Shown piece after piece: positions 2,420 to 63,926 of a stretch of 64,000 nucleotides of DNA (its first letter is position 1; every line of letters begins with the position of its first letter). The position numbers and the translations under genes are program-made. A model generated the notes under the pieces. The model ran no database searches and was not told the origin of the DNA. It saw only the letters and a list, made by a program, of their open reading frames with translations. The stretch is taken from the NCBI GenBank assembly GCA_963799775.1, contig CAWCYD010000003.1, positions 896,001 through 960,000 on the forward strand, written 5' to 3'. This DNA is from an uncultured archaeon. GTDB lineage: Archaea > Thermoproteota > Nitrososphaeria > Nitrososphaerales > Gagatemarchaeaceae.

Positions 2420-3754
2420 CTAGGCGCCTACAGCATTCGGCATGCCAATACCCAGAGGAGTGTACGAGGAGCATCTTTCTCTCAGATCGGCACGCAGGCG
2501 CCAGCAGTCGATGACACTCTTGTTCGCGAAGACCGAAGCGTTGAGTTTCCTGTAGACAGGCCAAGGAGTTGCCAAGATTACGAATTCGGAACTCGAGACG
2601 CATGCCTTGGCGTCCTTGTGGTAAATCACGCTTGATCCGAGCTGTGGCCTAGCTATTTCGAGGGCTGCAGGGTCGGTGACATGAACCTCGTATCCCTTGT
2701 CCCTGAGAGCTTCAGCTATCATCATCGACTGCGAAGCTTCCACAACGTCGGTATTCGGCTTATAGGACAGTCCAAGAACGCCGACCTTCATTCCCGGCTT
2801 TGCGCCCTGGCCCTGCAGAATACGGACGATCCGCCCCACCTGTCTATTGTTTATTCTGTGAGTTGCGAGGGCGAGATCGACGCTTATTCCCAGGCTTTGT
2901 GCGAACCGTGAGAAGGCGATGTTGTCTCTCGGAAAGCATGGACCTCCAAACCCCAGTGCCCCCTTCAGGAACGCCGAACCAATCCGCCTGTCTCGACCTA
3001 TGGCCGAAGAAATCGTGTCGACATTCCCCTCCGGCACTTGTTCAGAGATCTCCGCGATTGTGTTTGCGAAACTTATCTTCATGGTGACGTAGGAATTGAT
3101 TGCAATCTTCGTAATTTCAGCATTGACAAAATTCATCCTTTGGATCGCAGGAGAGCTAACGCAGACATTCTCCTGTATCTTGGCAAGCAGTCTCCCTGCT
3201 GCTTTGTCGGATTCGCCAATCAGGATTAAGTCAGGTTCGGTCAGCCCTCTAATAACATCTCCAAGCGCAATGAACTCAGGGCTGTAACAGAGACCGAAAT
3301 CCTTACCGCAGACCTTTCCAGATGTTCTTTCGAGGACCGGTTTCACCAAACGATCCATGGAGCCTGGCATTACGGTGCTCGTAAGGACTATCAGGTGATA
3401 GCCATCCTTTCTAGACAGTTCTATCCCAATCTTCTTCATTGCCTGTGCGACGAAGTCAAGCGAGAAGCCGCCGGACTTGCTGCTTGGGGTCGGCACGACC
3501 ACGAATGTGGTGTCAGTGGTGCCAACCACGTCGTAGTCTCTTGTAGCGGAGAGGCGCGCTCGGTTGGCTTTCATCACTGACTGAAGTCCAGGTTCATATA
3601 TTGGACACCTTCCTTTGTTTATTGCGTCTACTTTCGAGCGGTCCACATCCACACCCTTAACGACGTATCCGCTATTGGCAAGTACGCTAGCAAGGCAGAG
3701 CCCGAGCTTGCCTAGGCCGACTACCGAGACCCTCTCAGGGCTCACTGGATTCAC
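2420..3754 (-). CDS. UDP-glucose/GDP-mannose 6-dehydrogenase family protein
   Basis: VVGLGKLG Rossmann motif, IYEPGL, STVMPG, YSPEF, GFGGPCFPRD with catalytic Cys, C-terminal GLSYKPNTD. Confidence 0.92.
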   Translation of the reverse strand: MNPVSPERVSVVGLGKLGLCLASVLANSGYVVKGVDVDRSKVDAINKGRCPIYEPGLQSVMKANRARLSATRDYDVVGTTDTTFVVVPTPSSKSGGFSLDFVAQAMKKIGIELSRKDGYHLIVLTSTVMPGSMDRLVKPVLERTSGKVCGKDFGLCYSPEFIALGDVIRGLTEPDLILIGESDKAAGRLLAKIQENVCVSSPAIQRMNFVNAEITKIAINSYVTMKISFANTIAEISEQVPEGNVDTISSAIGRDRRIGSAFLKGALGFGGPCFPRDNIAFSRFAQSLGISVDLALATHRINNRQVGRIVRILQGQGAKPGMKVGVLGLSYKPNTDVVEASQSMMIAEALRDKGYEVHVTDPAALEIARPQLGSSVIYHKDAKACVSSSEFVILATPWPVYRKLNASVFANKSVIDCWRLRADLRERCSSYTPLGIGMPNAVGA

Positions 3755-60783: not shown

Positions 60784-61368
60784 CTAGGGCTCTAGGACCG
60801 TGATCACACCCCGCATCCACGCTGGGTGCCACATGCAGTAGTAGTCGTATGTGCCTGGGACTGTGAAAGTGTAGGTGAACGTCTCGTTCGTGCCCAGTAT
60901 CAGGTCGACTTGGCCAGCCCCTGCTGGCACGACGTTGGTCACCACGGTGTGCTGGCTCAGGTTGTCCTGGTTTATCCACGTGACCGTATTGTTGACACCT
61001 ACCACAAGCTTGAGATGCGAGGGCACGAAGTTCAGGCTCTGGTTCTCGGCAATTCCCTTGGGTATGATGACGAGTGTGTCGTTGAAGAAAAGCCCGAGCT
61101 TGTAGCCTGGGGTAGTCGTAGTAACTGTGACGGTCTGCAAAGACGTCTCGGTCCCCGCTACGGTGAAGAGTGTTTGGGTCAGGGTGCTCAGGATGGTGGA
61201 GCTTTGGGTTATCGTCGTCGGCGATATCAATTGGCTCACGACGGTGGTCAGGTTGGCCCCGGACTGGTTCAAGGCGTTCAGAAAGTATGTGCCTTCTGCG
61301 AGGGACGCGACGAGCAGCACAACCACCACGCCCACAAAGACCCTCGTGGAGATTGCTCGCCTTTTCAA
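60784..61368 (-). CDS. Membrane-anchored type-1 blue copper protein (cupredoxin/plastocyanin-like)
   Basis: N-terminal TM, Thr-rich stalk, VTWINQD..HTV and YYCMWHPAWM giving H/C/H/M ligands. Confidence 0.92.
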   Translation of the reverse strand: MKRRAISTRVFVGVVVVLLVASLAEGTYFLNALNQSGANLTTVVSQLISPTTITQSSTILSTLTQTLFTVAGTETSLQTVTVTTTTPGYKLGLFFNDTLVIIPKGIAENQSLNFVPSHLKLVVGVNNTVTWINQDNLSQHTVVTNVVPAGAGQVDLILGTNETFTYTFTVPGTYDYYCMWHPAWMRGVITVLEP

Positions 61369-61441
61369 GGTAGGTAGTTTCGGCCTCGCGCCGTATTAAA
61401 GCCCTTTTCCAAATCTATCGCCTGTCGATGCATGCCGCCTG

Positions 61442-61452
61442 TTGAGCCACAA
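61442..61452 (+). repeat. TTG+AGCCACAA, copy upstream of tnpB
   Basis: ttgagccacaa is identical to 63077-63087, and agccacaa is identical to 62816-62823. Confidence 0.85.
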
Positions 61453-62815
61453 GGTAGACGAGACAATCGCGTGTGCGGTTAAATAACATACCACTCTGAT
61501 ATTCTGTTGGTTCTCGCGAGAAAATCCATCAAGCAGAACTTCGAGCCCACCCCCCGAATCCACGTGCTCATGGAAGATTTCAGGCAGATGACCAATGATT
61601 GTATCAGAATAGGGCTAGAATTCGAGGAAAGGAATGCAGGCAGGACGCCATCGATGAAGAAGCTCTCCCTTCTAGCATACAATGACCTGAGGACTCGTTA
61701 TGGGGGCTTCGCTCAATACACACTCTGTGCGATATCGAAAGCAGCAGGCATACTATCGGCCCGAAGAAAATCGATTAAGCGAGGACATACGACGAAGAGA
61801 CCCTATCCGTCAAACCCGATGCTTGTTTCTTGCTATGGATTCAAGGTCTCAGGGAATTGCGATGGCCTGATTGTTCATCTTGATGCCAAGACATTCGAAA
61901 CTATCCCATTGAATGACCACACACGGTCGATGTTGATGCCGCGTGGTTCCTCGGTTAGGGTCCGCTCATTTACTCTGACCCCAGAATCGATATCGCTCTG
62001 TATCGCCAAAGAGACGGATTCGAGGGAAAGGAACGAGGTCGTCGCTGCAGTCGGAATCGACAGAAATCTCAAAAACGTAGCTGTCGGCAATGAGAGCTTG
62101 GTCACGCTCTATGATTTGACCAAGGTTCTAGAGATAGGAGAGAATACGAGAAGCGTAATCAAGTCATTCAAGAGAAATGATGTAAGAATAAGAAAGAAGA
62201 TCGCATCAAAGTATGGGAATGGGAGGAAGCGTAGGGTAAGGCAGATACTGAATCGATTGTCAAAGGAAATAGTGATACAAGCAAAGAAGAACAAGCAGCT
62301 GGTCGTCTTTGAGGACATGAGAGATATCCGAAAACTGTACAGGAAGGGGAACTACCAAGGCAGGTCTTTCAGAGATAAGATGAACAGCTCTTTCCCGTAC
62401 GGTGAGCTAAAACGAGAGGTAGACTACAAATCAGCATGGGATGGCGAAGTACCGGTGATGACTCTCACAAAGGGTGAGACCAAAGGAACGACTATGGATT
62501 GTCCACGATGCGGGGAGAGACTCCAAGTGGCATCCAGAAACGACACCGTGCACTACAGACAGCTGTGGTGTCCAAAATGTGAGAGATGGACGGACAGGGA
62601 CGTGGTCGCTGTCATGAACATCTCTCACAGGGGGCTGCTGAGGTTCCGCAGTTCAACAATCAAAGGCGAGGCAATTGAAGCAATGAATGGGAACCCGAAG
62701 GAGGGATGGAGCTCTTACAAAGAGCCGGTAAACCTACGAGTCGATGCCTCGAAGTTAGGTCTGACTGAACGTGCTCCTGGCAAGAAGAAGCATGCCCAGA
62801 GGATCTGACAGAACC
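61453..62815 (+). mobile_element. tnpB-only (IS1341-like, IS200/IS605 superfamily) element; boundaries inferred
   Basis: Solo tnpB with its own TATA box (61479-61485) and no tnpA nearby. Bracketed by agccacaa copies. Confidence 0.55.
61507..62808 (+). CDS. tnpB: RNA-guided endonuclease TnpB (Cas12f-related)
   Basis: RuvC-I GIDRN, RuvC-II VFED, zinc finger CPRC/CPKC and RuvC-III DRDVVAVMNI. 433 aa. Confidence 0.92.
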   Translation: MVLARKSIKQNFEPTPRIHVLMEDFRQMTNDCIRIGLEFEERNAGRTPSMKKLSLLAYNDLRTRYGGFAQYTLCAISKAAGILSARRKSIKRGHTTKRPYPSNPMLVSCYGFKVSGNCDGLIVHLDAKTFETIPLNDHTRSMLMPRGSSVRVRSFTLTPESISLCIAKETDSRERNEVVAAVGIDRNLKNVAVGNESLVTLYDLTKVLEIGENTRSVIKSFKRNDVRIRKKIASKYGNGRKRRVRQILNRLSKEIVIQAKKNKQLVVFEDMRDIRKLYRKGNYQGRSFRDKMNSSFPYGELKREVDYKSAWDGEVPVMTLTKGETKGTTMDCPRCGERLQVASRNDTVHYRQLWCPKCERWTDRDVVAVMNISHRGLLRFRSSTIKGEAIEAMNGNPKEGWSSYKEPVNLRVDASKLGLTERAPGKKKHAQRI

Positions 62816-62835
62816 AGCCACAATCCTTTAACGGA
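62620..62835 (+). ncRNA. Putative omega/reRNA scaffold overlapping the tnpB 3' end, with a guide at about 62816-62835
   Basis: Position inferred from the established TnpB architecture. The scaffold/guide boundary is inferred from where similarity to the two TTG-flanked sites begins. The 5' boundary is approximate. Confidence 0.5.
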
Positions 62836-63076
62836 AATAAGTTCGCGAAGACCTTCGACGCGGTCCGATGCGCTGAAGGCCTGGCGTCGTTGTAGCATAG
62901 ATTGACCAAAACTCCATCGTATATCTCTAATAGCATCCTGAAACCATGAAAAGAGTCAAGGTTCAGAGTAGCTCTCCTGCGGCACTCCATCCCCCTGTAT
63001 GCGTGAATCATCAGAAAACAGCTTGACCGACCCTCGGTTTGCGAATCCCCCCTTGAATCGCGACATGGGACGCTAT

Positions 63077-63095
63077 TTGAGCCACAATCTTTAAC
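63077..63095 (+). promoter_or_regulatory. BRE/TATA region of the transporter gene, matching the putative TnpB guide
   Basis: ttg-agccacaatctttaac. The TATA-like ctttaac ends 25 nt before ATG 63120. Confidence 0.7.
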
Positions 63096-63119
63096 TTTTG
63101 ATTCGAGCTTCTTTGTGCG

Positions 63120-63926
63120 ATGCTCGGGTTCGCTGAAACCTTCGGAGCTATCCTCGGGTCTTTCCTCATTCCCACTCTCGTCGGCCTTCTCCTGGTGTCT
63201 CTGGCGGCGCGTTCGGTCCCAGCGAGATATCTGGCGGCCTTCGCGGTGGGCTTGTATCTATGGTTCTTCTCGGATACGATAGGCGATGCCAACCTGCTCG
63301 GCGTCAGCGAGGGCTTCACGGGAGGTGTCTGGCATGTCGTGCTCTGGGTCATGTTTGCCATCGGCTTGATCGTGTTCTTCTCGGCCGACAGAGACATGTT
63401 TGCCTCAGGCTCTGAAGGGGAGCGCTTCGGCTTTGCCATCCCAATCCTCGTGGCGCTGGCTGTGGGTATCCATGGCTTTGGAGAGGGAGCGGCCGTCGGG
63501 GCCACCGCAGCCACATCTCCGAGCACGAGCCTCCTCGATGCGTTCGGCGGACTGTCAGCGGCAGCTTCGTTCCTGATCCACAAGGGCCTTGAGCCCATGA
63601 TGGTCGGCGCAGCCTATTGGGTCTATGCCAAGGACCACGCTACGGACACGGCCGGAAGGGTGCGGGACATCATCATCCTATTGCTTGCCTTCACGCTCCC
63701 CGGAATAGTCGGAGGCTCTGTGGCCTACTACCTAGTTCAAGCGTATCCTAGCGCGGACTTCACCTACGTCTTCGCGCTGGGGCTGGGGCATTCCATCTAT
63801 GCGGCGTTCAGGCTCGTGCGGCCAGTCTTCACAGGTTTGGGCGGAGACGCAGAGTCCCTGAAGACAGCGCTCGTGGTCATCCTCGGGTTCCTATGCCTTT
63901 ATCTGGCCGCGTCGCTTCACTCGTAG
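63120..63926 (+). CDS. ZIP-family-like divalent metal transporter
   Basis: About eight TM segments, with GIHGFGEG and IHKGLE matching the ZIP TM4/TM5 metal-binding motifs. Confidence 0.72.
   Translation: MLGFAETFGAILGSFLIPTLVGLLLVSLAARSVPARYLAAFAVGLYLWFFSDTIGDANLLGVSEGFTGGVWHVVLWVMFAIGLIVFFSADRDMFASGSEGERFGFAIPILVALAVGIHGFGEGAAVGATAATSPSTSLLDAFGGLSAAASFLIHKGLEPMMVGAAYWVYAKDHATDTAGRVRDIIILLLAFTLPGIVGGSVAYYLVQAYPSADFTYVFALGLGHSIYAAFRLVRPVFTGLGGDAESLKTALVVILGFLCLYLAASLHS

What the first reader, a model, noticed from the sequence alone, without database searches (positions are those of the whole stretch)
61442..63120. Solo TnpB whose predicted guide matches two TTG-flanked sites at neighbouring promoters: candidate archaeal RNA-guided regulator or unusual homing element
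Seen: 8 nt after the tnpB stop lies AGCCACAATCCTTTAAC (62816-62832). It recurs as TTG-AGCCACAATC-TTTAAC (63077-63095; 10 nt perfect, 16 of 17 with one bulge) across the BRE/TATA of the ZIP-like gene. It also recurs as TTG-AGCCACAA (61442-61452; 8 nt), about 27 nt upstream of tnpB's TATA in the divergent cupredoxin/tnpB intergenic region. Both remote copies share a 5' TTG that the guide copy lacks, the geometry of a TAM plus seed. Known: TnpB guides derive from the DNA flanking the element's right end, TAMs are 5' and T-rich, IS200/IS605 insertion makes no target duplication, and nuclease-dead TldR proteins repress promoters. Here the RuvC D/E/D residues appear intact. Inference, three models: (a) partial pairing gives binding without cutting, repressing the metal transporter and autoregulating tnpB; (b) 61453-63076 is an insertion between 11-bp direct repeats whose internal guide targets the empty site, with TAM and full target split by the insertion; (c) an 8-bp target duplication, atypical for this family. 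Both flanking genes are metal-related.
Basis: partly seen in the sequence, partly recalled or inferred. Interest (0 to 1): 0.85.

Follow-up and report, generated by a model that had tools for sequence, protein, structure and literature searches.

The report
TnpB cassette inside a duplicated promoter
A lone TnpB gene sits in a mobile cassette with IS6-type ends that landed, with an ordinary 8-base target duplication, in one copy of a duplicated promoter, so its guide resembles the neighbouring promoter by shared descent and not because it evolved to regulate it.

Summary
The headline reading, an RNA-guided regulator, is not supported.

- **Element limits.** The tnpB element runs 61453-62815. 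Its right end (...ACAGAACC) is fixed by 5 own-genome paralogues and about 26 genus copies.
- **Left copy.** AGCCACAA at 61445 and 62816 is a true 8-bp target-site duplication. Two other copies of this TnpB clade have empty sites in relatives with a single copy of the duplicated 8-9 bases.
- **IS6-type ends.** The clade has terminal inverted repeats that match those of IS6-family transposase elements in the same genus (up to 23 of 27), and those elements also make 8-bp duplications. The genome has IS6 transposases but no Y1 or serine TnpA hit. The duplication is preceded by T-R (TTG here) in 8 of 9 TnpB copies, against 3 of 22 sides of IS6 elements, which fits a TAM.
- **Right copy.** TTGAGCCACAA-N3-TATA at 63077 is the ancestral promoter of the downstream membrane-protein gene. 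It is exact in 9 of 13 assessable orthologous loci, and none of the 14 fetched loci has a tnpB.
- **Guide.** The guide is the right half of a second, dead promoter copy followed by a 24-25-nt gene stub.

Weak binding at the live promoter is not excluded.

The parts
60784..61368 (-). Cupredoxin-domain gene (194 aa), divergent from tnpB
   Evidence: Pfam Copper-bind E 6.1e-09 and Cupredoxin_1 E 4.2e-07. Orthologues lie next to the transporter gene in G018, G019 and G020.
61442..61444 (+). TTG directly 5' of the left target duplication, the TAM-like position
   Evidence: T at -2 and R at -1 precede the left duplication in 8 of 9 TnpB copies. The mirrored right side shows it in 1 of 9, sides of IS6 transposase elements in 3 of 22, and the genome background is 8.2%.
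61445..61452 (+). Left copy of the 8-bp target-site duplication AGCCACAA
   Evidence: Identical to 62816-62823 and abuts the element's left end. The same geometry is proven by empty sites for L063 and L075.
61453..62815 (+). Solo tnpB element (1363 bp) with IS6-type ends. The left inverted repeat has decayed.
   Evidence: The right end is fixed by paralogues. The reverse complement of the right end matches the IS6 element's terminus at 10 of its first 12 bases. The left end GGTAGACGAG... matches at only 7 of 27.
61479..61485 (+). TATA-like box TTAAATA of tnpB, inside the conserved left-end block
   Evidence: The block GCGTGTG(G)GCGGTTAAATA is conserved among paralogues.
61507..62808 (+). tnpB ORF (433 aa, TTG start) with RuvC D/E/D and zinc-finger motifs present
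62601..62815 (+). omega-RNA-type scaffold overlapping the 3' end of tnpB
   Evidence: Consensus structure of 28 copies: 8 of 27 predicted pairs keep pairing after both sides changed. There is no Rfam match.
62807..62815 (+). Right terminus GACAGAACC, which is both the scaffold's 3' end and the IS6-type right inverted repeat tip
62816..62823 (+). Right copy of the 8-bp target-site duplication AGCCACAA, also the first 8 nt of the predicted guide
62816..62835 (+). Predicted 20-nt guide AGCCACAATCCTTTAACGGA. The length is assumed and the RNA ends are not mapped.
   Evidence: In every copy the flank diverges immediately after ...AGAACC.
62816..62832 (+). Right half of dead promoter copy P1, with TATA-like TTTAAC at 62827-62832. 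With 61442-61452 it rebuilds TTGAGCCACAATCCTTTAAC.
   Evidence: 16 of 17 identical to P2 with one extra C. The motif family is conserved upstream of orthologues.
62842..62866 (+). Decayed stub of the transporter gene's 5' coding region. About 24 nt, including the start codon, are missing between P1 and the stub.
   Evidence: blastn to the orthologues' CDS in 5 relatives, starting at CDS base 10 in four and one base off in L028, best 88% over 25 nt with E 0.003. An nhmmer profile hit covers 62842-62865 against CDS bases 10-33, E 0.03. Against the genome's own gene the match is weaker: 8 of 300 shuffles reach it.
62867..63076 (.). About 210 bp of unexplained origin between the stub and the live promoter
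   Evidence: No match in the own genome, in 23 genomes of the genus or to the transporter profile. The whole 62816-63076 segment has GC 0.51, against 0.59 for the genome.
63077..63095 (+). Live promoter/operator P2: TTGAGCCACAA plus TATA-like TTTAAC, about 40 nt before the ATG
   Evidence: The exact 11-mer is present at the same distance from the start codon in 9 of 13 assessable orthologous loci, and a tenth has 10 of 11.
63120..63926 (+). Multi-pass membrane protein (268 aa), possibly a distant ZIP-type metal transporter
   Evidence: No Pfam or NCBIfam family. In the atlas, 25 of 30 nearest hits fall in clusters that carry PF02535 Zip, score 0.91, which is a lead only.

Best explanation
Positions 61453-62815 are a non-autonomous mobile cassette. 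It carries tnpB and its omega-RNA scaffold and is bounded by IS6-family-type inverted repeats.

It was inserted by a DDE (IS6-type) transposase acting in trans, which duplicated 8 bp of the target (AGCCACAA). This step is inferred. The target was one copy (P1) of the promoter/operator of the downstream membrane-protein gene. The locus now holds two promoter copies:
- P1 is split by the cassette and followed by a dead 24-25-nt gene stub.
- P2 at 63077 is intact and serves the live gene.

In TnpB elements the guide is the DNA just past the right end. Here that makes the guide the right half of P1, so it resembles P2 by common descent. The 8-nt match at the left boundary is simply the other copy of the duplication.

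The TTG in front of the left duplication fits a TAM. On an uninterrupted copy of this promoter, TTG plus the single AGCCACAA and what follows would be a full guide target. At the filled locus the left junction matches for only 8 nt and the right junction lacks the TAM. This drive against empty alleles is inferred.

The cassette's left inverted repeat has decayed, so this copy is probably no longer mobile.
For: Right end:
- All 5 own-genome paralogues end in AGAACC and then diverge.
- The same holds in the genus copies examined. An end motif was found in 27 of 32 loci by pattern, and 28 ends were used after two manual fixes.

Target duplication:
- 9 of 25 copies repeat at least 8 nt of their own right flank, for most of them about 60-70 nt upstream of the start codon. 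Only 16 of 600 mismatched copy pairs do so.
- The G010 empty site has one GGCTGAGA where G001 has GCCTGAGA-[GGTTCTGTCA...TGACAGAACC]-GCCTGAGA.
- G017 has one TTATGTTAG where G006 has two around the element.

IS6 link:
- The L124 element carries an IS6-family transposase (best NCBIfam model NF033587). Its termini are GGTTCTGTCAAGTCTCCGTCGG... with an 8-bp duplication, and it has no tnpB.
- TnpB right ends match that terminus at a mean of 8.4 of the first 12 bases, against 3.0 for internal 12-mers, and at up to 23 of 27. The L063 left end matches at 21 of 27.
- 10 of 11 IS6 elements with clear inverted repeats have perfect 8-bp duplications.
- The own genome has 2 IS6-family transposase genes, 0 Y1 TnpA hits and 0 resolvase hits.
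- The IS6 review defines the family by 8-bp repeats, GG tips and a cTGTt motif (PMC7986276, passages).

Promoter:
- The 11-mer is exact in 9 of 13 assessable orthologous loci at a fixed distance from the start codon.
- 0 of 14 loci have a tnpB within about 1.5 kb.
- G018, G019 and G020 keep cupredoxin and transporter adjacent, with gaps of about 115-133 bp by the tblastn coordinates, against 1751 bp here.

Gene stub after P1.

TAM: 8 of 9 on the left against 1 of 9 mirrored on the right and 3 of 22 IS6 sides.
Against: - In this copy the left inverted repeat is not recognisable (7 of 27). Its IS6-type left end is therefore inferred from paralogues, of which copy B has GGTTCTGC... after a 6-of-8 duplication.
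- No IS6 element in the own genome has matching termini. One has GGATTCTGTTACG..., which needs a 1-nt gap, and the other has a different repeat. The best-matching element is in another species of the genus.
- Co-occurrence is uninformative. IS6 hits are in 13 of 15 genomes with the clade and in 6 of 8 without it.
- The L124 transposase scores 104 bits, below the curated cut-off of 125.
- How the promoter came to be duplicated is unknown, and about 210 bp stay unexplained.
- P1's 17 nt are much better kept (16 of 17) than the stub behind them (19 of 26 to the genome's own gene, followed by no detectable similarity). By my own hand binomial at 27% divergence this has a probability of about 0.035, which leaves room for constraint on the guide or for gene conversion.
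- There are no expression data.
Confidence: 0.7

Rival explanations
1. RNA-guided regulator. The TnpB-omega-RNA complex binds the TTG-flanked partial matches at P2 and at its own left junction without cutting. This represses the transporter gene and tnpB itself.
For: P2 has TTG plus a 10-nt exact seed match, and 16 of 17 with one bulge, lying across the BRE/TATA region. It is the only 9- or 10-nt seed match in the genome that is preceded by T-R. P1's 17 nt are better preserved than the stub behind them. The left junction lies 26 nt upstream of the tnpB TATA.
Against: - The motif is conserved in 9 of 13 assessable orthologous loci, and none of the 14 has a tnpB, so it did not evolve as a target.
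- The left match is a target duplication present in the whole clade.
- The RuvC motifs are intact, whereas known TnpB-derived regulators are nuclease-dead. That point is recalled; I saw that paper only as a reference-list entry.
- Copy D's guide has four 10-nt and one 12-nt seed matches preceded by T-R elsewhere in the genome. Partial self-matches are therefore common and tolerated.
Confidence: 0.07
2. Self-targeting conflict. The cassette is an active drive element, and P2 is a near-cognate site in the same chromosome. The extra C in the guide, which gives 4 nt between CACAA and TTAAC in P1 where P2 and the relatives have 3, is an escape change that stopped self-cleavage of the live promoter.
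For: Spacing in 10 relatives and in P2 is 3 nt, so the extra C is the derived state and lies in the guide copy. The nuclease motifs are intact and a TAM-like TTG is present at P2.
Against: A single indel in a dead promoter needs no selective explanation. There is no evidence that the RNA or the protein is made (one search lists no RNA holder). The order of the events is unknown.
Confidence: 0.12
3. Single composite insertion. Positions 61453-63076, that is tnpB plus 261 bp of old flank, arrived as one piece between 11-bp repeats of TTGAGCCACAA. This could have happened by guide-directed homing or by one-ended transposition.
For: Removing 61453-63076 leaves 116 bp between the two genes, like the roughly 115-133 bp in G018, G019 and G020. 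The 261 bp have GC 0.51, closer to the tnpB ORF (0.49) than to the genome (0.59). They have no relative in the genus.
Against: The family-typical right terminus at 62815 is followed directly by an 8-of-8 copy of the bases that precede the left end. That is what a duplication around 61453-62815 predicts, and it would be a coincidence otherwise. The right edge at 63076 has no inverted-repeat terminus. The DNA after 62815 reads as promoter plus gene stub, which is local-type sequence.
Confidence: 0.06

Closest known systems
DDE-transposon-associated TnpB, including solo TnpBs mobilised in trans (Altae-Tran et al. 2023, PMC10691335; section 9 read in full, plus term-search passages)
   Same: A TnpB with its RNA scaffold within 250 bp of a transposon end. 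The ends are inverted terminal repeats. Solo copies have ends that match those of transposase-bearing elements, which implies mobilisation in trans.
   Different: The main text names IS630, and a 2026 review (PMC13565253, passages) lists ISL2, IS630 and IS1031. IS6 has 0 whole-word hits in the main text. The supplements could not be seen and may include it. The passages I read do not describe the 8-bp duplication supplying the first 8 guide bases, or the T-R enrichment on the left side only.
IS6/IS26 family insertion sequences (Varani et al. 2021, PMC7986276; passages read)
   Same: 8-bp target duplication, GG tips and a CTGT motif in the short terminal inverted repeats. IS6-family transposases are present in the genome and the genus.
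   Different: The cassette has no transposase of its own and carries tnpB instead. The review mentions TnpB or OrfB 0 times and reports only one member with a passenger gene and two MITEs. In the window's copy the left repeat has decayed.
IS200/IS605 family, IS1341 group (tnpB-only elements)
   Same: A solo tnpB, an omega-RNA scaffold overlapping the gene's 3' end, and a guide taken from the flank after the right end.
   Different: That family is defined as lacking inverted terminal repeats and target duplications (PMC3119063 and PMC13565253, passages). Both are present here. No Y1 TnpA was found in the genome, which is 82% complete.
TldR, nuclease-dead TnpB-derived RNA-guided transcription factors (Wiegand et al. 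2024; seen only as a reference entry, content recalled)
   Same: A TnpB-type protein whose guide matches a promoter next to a TAM.
   Different: The RuvC motifs are intact here. The match is partial (10 nt, then a bulge). The promoter motif is conserved without any tnpB in relatives, so there is no conserved guide-target pair.

Membership tests
TnpB (RNA-guided nuclease of the OMEGA type) | TnpB domain architecture: RuvC with inserted zinc ribbon (TNB) | tested here: met
   Pfam PF07282 E 2.3e-09, above cut-off. NCBIfam guided_TnpB E 3.4e-18, 66 bits, below its cut-off of 100. phmmer hits to solved TnpB chains 8bf8 and 8h1j, E about 5e-04.
TnpB (RNA-guided nuclease of the OMEGA type) | Catalytic D-E-D of RuvC | tested here: met
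   GIDRN and DRD align to the catalytic aspartates of the solved chains. The glutamate is assigned from the VFEDM motif, because the printed alignment is weak there.
TnpB (RNA-guided nuclease of the OMEGA type) | Structured RNA scaffold overlapping the gene's 3' end and ending at the element's right end | tested here: met
   8 of 27 consensus pairs show compensatory changes across 28 copies. The RNA's actual ends are not mapped.
TnpB (RNA-guided nuclease of the OMEGA type) | Guide-dependent, TAM-dependent DNA cleavage | not testable with these tools
   Only the T-R enrichment 5' of the left duplication (8 of 9) speaks to a TAM.
IS200/IS605 (Y1 transposase, peel-and-paste) | No terminal inverted repeats and no target-site duplication | tested here: not met
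   8-9-bp duplications are proven by two empty sites. Inverted repeats run 10 of 10 up to about 25 nt in L063 and L067.
IS200/IS605 (Y1 transposase, peel-and-paste) | A Y1 TnpA available in the genome | tested here: not met
   0 hits to PF01797 in the own genome, with the controls positive. The genome is 82% complete, so absence is not proven.
IS607 (serine recombinase) | A serine recombinase TnpA available in the genome | tested here: not met
   0 hits to PF00239. The same completeness caveat applies.
IS6-family-type element (non-autonomous) | 8-bp direct target repeats | tested here: met
   Window 8 of 8. The L063 empty site confirms 8 bp. IS6 transposase elements of the genus have perfect repeats in 10 of 11 cases. 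The definition is from PMC7986276.
IS6-family-type element (non-autonomous) | Short terminal inverted repeats with GG tips and a cTGTt motif, related to those of transposase-bearing members | tested here: inconclusive
   Met for the clade, at up to 23 of 27 to the L124 element. In the window's copy it is met at the right end only (10 of the first 12). The left end matches at 7 of 27.
IS6-family-type element (non-autonomous) | Mobilisation by an IS6-family transposase | not testable with these tools
   Transposase genes are present: 2 in the own genome, and hits in 19 of 23 genomes of the genus. Co-occurrence with the clade is uninformative.
TldR-type RNA-guided regulator | Inactivated nuclease | tested here: not met
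   The RuvC motifs are present.
TldR-type RNA-guided regulator | A conserved pairing of guide and promoter target across relatives | tested here: not met
   0 of 14 orthologous promoter loci have a tnpB, yet the motif is conserved.

The most novel reading that the evidence does not exclude
In this archaeal genus, TnpB and its omega-RNA ride in cassettes moved by IS6-type copy-in transposition, not by a Y1 or serine TnpA. The 8-bp target duplication becomes the first 8 bases of the guide.

Only insertions that happen to land directly 3' of a T-R (TTG/TTA) TAM can cut, and so convert, empty alleles in other chromosome copies. That would explain why surviving copies almost all carry that motif on the left side only.

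At this locus the guide also keeps a 10-nt seed match to the live promoter. It could bind there weakly, and the extra C in the guide may be an escape from self-cleavage.
Probability: 0.3. Interest if true: 0.65.

Novelty: new variant of a known kind. Interest (0 to 1): 0.42.

Why it matters
For this finding, the result removes an attractive but unsupported claim of a natural nuclease-active TnpB regulator and replaces it with a checked anatomy.

More broadly, how tnpB-only elements move where no TnpA exists is a long-standing puzzle. It was already raised for haloarchaea in PMC3119063. Here a whole clade shows the marks of a DDE (IS6-type) mechanism: proven 8-bp duplications, inverted repeats shared with IS6 transposase elements, and no Y1 or serine TnpA hit in the genome.

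The one-sided T-R motif next to the duplication gives a natural read-out of a TAM. It also suggests how an RNA-guided nuclease can benefit a transposon that does not excise. That idea can be tested directly with a transposition assay and a TAM library.

Tried and rejected
- **Rfam** on 61300-63300 at E up to 1 gave no match.
- **Closer relatives of this tnpB in metagenome contigs:** only 4 distant or partial loci, 54-70% identity, so there is no donor locus.
- **Origin of 62816-63076:** no match in the own genome beyond chance or in 23 genomes of the genus (best E 0.007 over 19 nt). tblastx to relatives' loci gave only weak hits (E 0.012), which I did not follow.
- **Tandem duplication of promoter plus gene as the source of the 261 bp:** rejected as shown. 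Similarity to the transporter profile stops after 24 nt, and nothing downstream of the gene matches.
- **No transporter paralogue** in the genome.
- **RNA evidence:** no RNA holder is listed.
- **Laid DNA contigs** were thin. Parts of the stretch, including 62880-63533, had no cover, and no joint skipping the element was listed.
- **A same-termini partner element in the own genome:** a pattern search found only tnpB copy B.
- **Co-occurrence** of the clade with IS6 transposases is uninformative: 13 of 15 against 6 of 8.
- **The distant tnpB clade (L006-L010):** one right end (L009) and one left end (L010) have the IS6-like tip, but no duplications could be paired.
- **The two other TTGAGCCACAA sites** (C3:1456934 and 497011, minus strand) have no TATA-like box after them, and their gene context is ambiguous. 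A regulon was not shown.
- **My by-eye count of 9 of 9 T-R** (used) was corrected to 8 of 9 by script, because L060 is ambiguous.
- **Not used:** structure prediction, complex prediction and the large protein searches, because the family assignment did not need them.


Full report
**Observation**

The two long copies agree at 16 of 17 positions, with one extra C in the first.

This is not a genome-wide repeat. AGCCACAA followed within 2-5 nt by TTAA occurs only at these two places in 2.47 Mb. The 11-mer with TTG occurs 4 times against about 0.8 expected.

The ORF 61507-62808 is a TnpB. It has GIDRN, VFEDM and DRD motifs and two CxxC pairs, and the two aspartates align to the catalytic positions of solved TnpB chains.

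**Right end and RNA**

The genome holds four paralogues of this tnpB at 55-68% protein identity. All five copies end in ...AGAACC and are unrelated after it. Across the genus I collected 32 loci. A pattern found the end motif in 27, and after two manual fixes 28 ends were used. The flanks after the end differ, except in three pairs that are clearly the same inherited insertion.

The last 215 nt of 28 copies fold into a shared structure in which 8 of 27 pairs keep pairing after changes on both sides. This supports an omega-RNA-type scaffold. Rfam has no match.

**The left copy is a target-site duplication**

In 9 of 25 copies, at least 8 nt of the copy's own right flank recur, for most of them about 60-70 nt upstream of the start codon (two lie further out, at -87 and -155). 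Only 16 of 600 mismatched copy pairs reach that. Two empty sites prove what this repeat is:
- **L063.** G010 reads GGGATTG-GGCTGAGA-CAAACG. G001 reads GGGATTG-GCCTGAGA-[GGTTCTGTCA...TGACAGAACC]-GCCTGAGA-CAAACG, with flanks 87-91% identical.
- **L075.** G017 has one TTATGTTAG where G006 has one on each side of the element.

The window has the same geometry: CCTGTTG-AGCCACAA-[61453...62815]-AGCCACAA-TCC.

**IS6-type ends**

Some copies have clear terminal inverted repeats (L063 and L067 at 10 of 10, extending to about 22-25 nt). The papers I read define IS200/IS605 elements as lacking both inverted repeats and target duplications (PMC3119063 and PMC13565253, passages). The genome gave no hit to the Y1 transposase or to resolvase, while the controls were positive. 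The genome is 82% complete.

It does encode two IS6-family transposases (the L102 copy scores 144.9 bits against a cut-off of 125). 19 of 23 genomes of the genus have such genes. Of the 30 IS6 loci scanned, I took forward the 11 with a clear inverted repeat, and 10 of those 11 have perfect 8-bp duplications.

One of them, L124, is 2643 bp and has no tnpB. Its transposase's best model is IS6, at 104 bits, below the cut-off. Its termini are GGTTCTGTCAAGTCTCCGTCGG.... The reverse-complemented right ends of the TnpB elements match this terminus at a mean of 8.4 of the first 12 bases, against 3.0 for internal 12-mers, and at up to 23 of 27. The L063 left end matches at 21 of 27. The IS6 review gives 8-bp repeats, GG tips and a cTGTt motif as the family's marks, and never mentions TnpB (PMC7986276, passages).

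I infer that this TnpB clade travels in non-autonomous cassettes with IS6-type ends, moved in trans. In the window's copy the right end matches at 10 of the first 12 bases. The left end matches at only 7 of 27 and looks about 11 nt shorter than copy B's when I compare the sequences by eye. This copy is therefore probably immobile.

**A one-sided TAM-like motif**

With an 8-bp duplication assumed, T at -2 and a purine at -1 precede the left duplication in 8 of 9 copies. The trinucleotides are TTG, ATA, CTA, TTA, TTA, ATA, TTG and TTA. L060 is ambiguous. L057 and L059 are one inherited insertion, and L061 may be too.

The mirrored position on the right shows the motif in 1 of 9 copies. For IS6 transposase elements it is 3 of 22 sides, and the genome background is 8.2%. 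Fisher's test gives 0.003 for left against right, and 0.0002 against the IS6 sides with or without the doubtful copies.

This asymmetry fits a TAM. On an empty allele, TAM plus the single target copy plus what follows is a full match to the guide. At a filled site the left junction matches for only 8 nt and the right junction lacks the TAM. Whether the motif reflects target choice, or survival of insertions that can convert empty alleles, cannot be told from sequence.

**The right copy is the gene's own promoter**

Orthologues of the downstream membrane protein were found in 14 loci of relatives. One is cut by a contig end. Of the other 13:
- 9 have the exact TTGAGCCACAA at the same distance from the start codon, followed after 3 nt by a TATA-like TTAAT;
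- 1 has 10 of 11;
- 3 lack it.

Their upstream neighbours differ, and none of the 14 loci has a tnpB within about 1.5 kb. G018, G019 and G020 keep cupredoxin and transporter adjacent, with gaps of about 115-133 bp by the tblastn coordinates, against 1751 bp here.

The 11-mer is an imperfect palindrome (TTGAG-C-CACAA, read from the sequence). I think it is a protein operator next to the TATA box, but this is inference. The protein has no Pfam or NCBIfam family. A language-model search puts it nearest to ZIP-family clusters, which is a lead only.

**Why the guide matches the promoter**

Taking out 61453-62815 and one AGCCACAA rebuilds TTGAGCCACAATCCTTTAAC, a full second copy of the promoter (P1). 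It sits at the ancestral distance from the cupredoxin gene.

Nine bases after P1's TATA-like box come 24-25 nt that match bases 10-34 of the transporter's coding region. The blastn match appears in five relatives, starting at CDS base 10 in four and one base off in L028, with the best at 88% and E 0.003. A profile of 12 sequences hits the same place (E 0.03). The match to the genome's own gene is weaker (19 of 26; 8 of 300 shuffles reach the score). About 24 nt, including the start codon, are missing.

So the cassette sits in a dead promoter-plus-stub copy, and the live copy (P2) is 261 bp further on. Because TTG is joined to AGCCACAATC only in P2, P2 cannot have been copied from the locus after the insertion. 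Either the duplication came first or P2 was brought in by recombination; this is inference. The remaining roughly 210 bp match nothing.

**What this means for function**

The guide would pair with P2 for 10 nt after a TTG and then meet a bulge. From memory of the first TnpB papers, which I did not read here, cleavage needs a longer match, so efficient cutting of P2 is unlikely. Weak binding cannot be excluded.

Such partial matches are not special. P2 is the only 9- or 10-nt seed match of this guide that is preceded by T-R, but the guide of paralogue D has four 10-nt matches and one 12-nt match of that kind.

Two observations keep a functional link alive at low odds. P1's 17 nt are much better kept than the stub behind them; by my own hand binomial the probability is about 0.035. 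And the extra C is the derived state and lies in the guide copy.

**Comparison with what is known**

Altae-Tran et al. 2023 (PMC10691335, section 9 read in full, plus term-search passages) describe six TnpB branches linked to DDE transposases, all with inverted terminal repeats. They also describe solo TnpBs whose ends match transposase-bearing elements, implying mobilisation in trans. The kind is therefore known.

IS6 is not named in that main text (0 hits). It is also missing from the list ISL2, IS630, IS1031 in a 2026 review (PMC13565253, passages). Three searches found no paper linking TnpB to IS6 (listings only). The supplements were closed and may hold it.

The idea that guided nucleases can drive insertion sequences into empty copies is in print. 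I saw it only as a reference entry (Mears et al. 2025).

**Limits**

- Relatives are one genome per species and 65-90% identical, so the ages and order of events are unknown.
- No RNA data exist for this stretch.
- The one DNA run with this sequence is thin. It confirms only 62622-62860, including the CC, and may be the assembly's own sample.

Noticed in passing
G000:C3:417448-420861 (L102), outside the window: A 1.9-kb element with an IS6-family transposase, a perfect 22-bp inverted repeat of a different sequence and an 8-bp duplication. It is inserted right at the left tip (GGCTCTGTTATCC...) of a distant tnpB copy (L010), so one element is nested in another.
   Followed up: partly
G000:C3:270938-274351 (L103), outside the window: An 835-bp IS6-type element whose inverted repeats are about 145 bp long and overlap the transposase reading frame. 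It looks like a rearranged or deleted copy.
   Followed up: no
L057 and L059, right flank after the duplication: Directly after the 8-bp duplication the flank reads GTTCTGTG..., which resembles the start of a left inverted repeat. This may be a remnant of a second, adjacent insertion.
   Followed up: no
L062 (G003:C106): 16 nt of the right flank recur 155 nt upstream of the start codon, much further out and longer than in other copies. This is not explained.
   Followed up: no
window 1-64000 and G000:C3:820000-866000: The window's GC is 0.53 against 0.59 for the genome. Three of the four paralogous tnpB copies and two broken ones lie within 45 kb, some 90-135 kb upstream of this locus. This may be a region rich in mobile DNA.
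   Followed up: no
G000:C3:1456934 and 497011 (minus strand), outside the window: These are the only other exact TTGAGCCACAA sites in the genome. Each lies 12-25 nt before an ATG but has no TATA-like box, and their gene context is ambiguous.
   Followed up: partly
window 62715-63011, minus strand: A 98-aa ATG ORF runs antisense across the tnpB 3' end and the unexplained segment. It is probably spurious and was not searched.
   Followed up: no
L075 (G006:C49) positions 2707-3645, compared with G018 and G017: A reading frame of about 276 aa that looks like a methyltransferase (my reading of the translation, not searched) is present in G006 and G017 and missing in G018. It lies next to the tnpB insertion but is not part of it.
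   Followed up: partly
window 63066-63079 compared with L037, L042 and L032: The bases just upstream of TTG at P2 (ACGCTAT) resemble those in some relatives (ACGCTGT in L037) more than those at P1 (CGCCTG). The operator may extend further left, or P2 may have another history.
   Followed up: no
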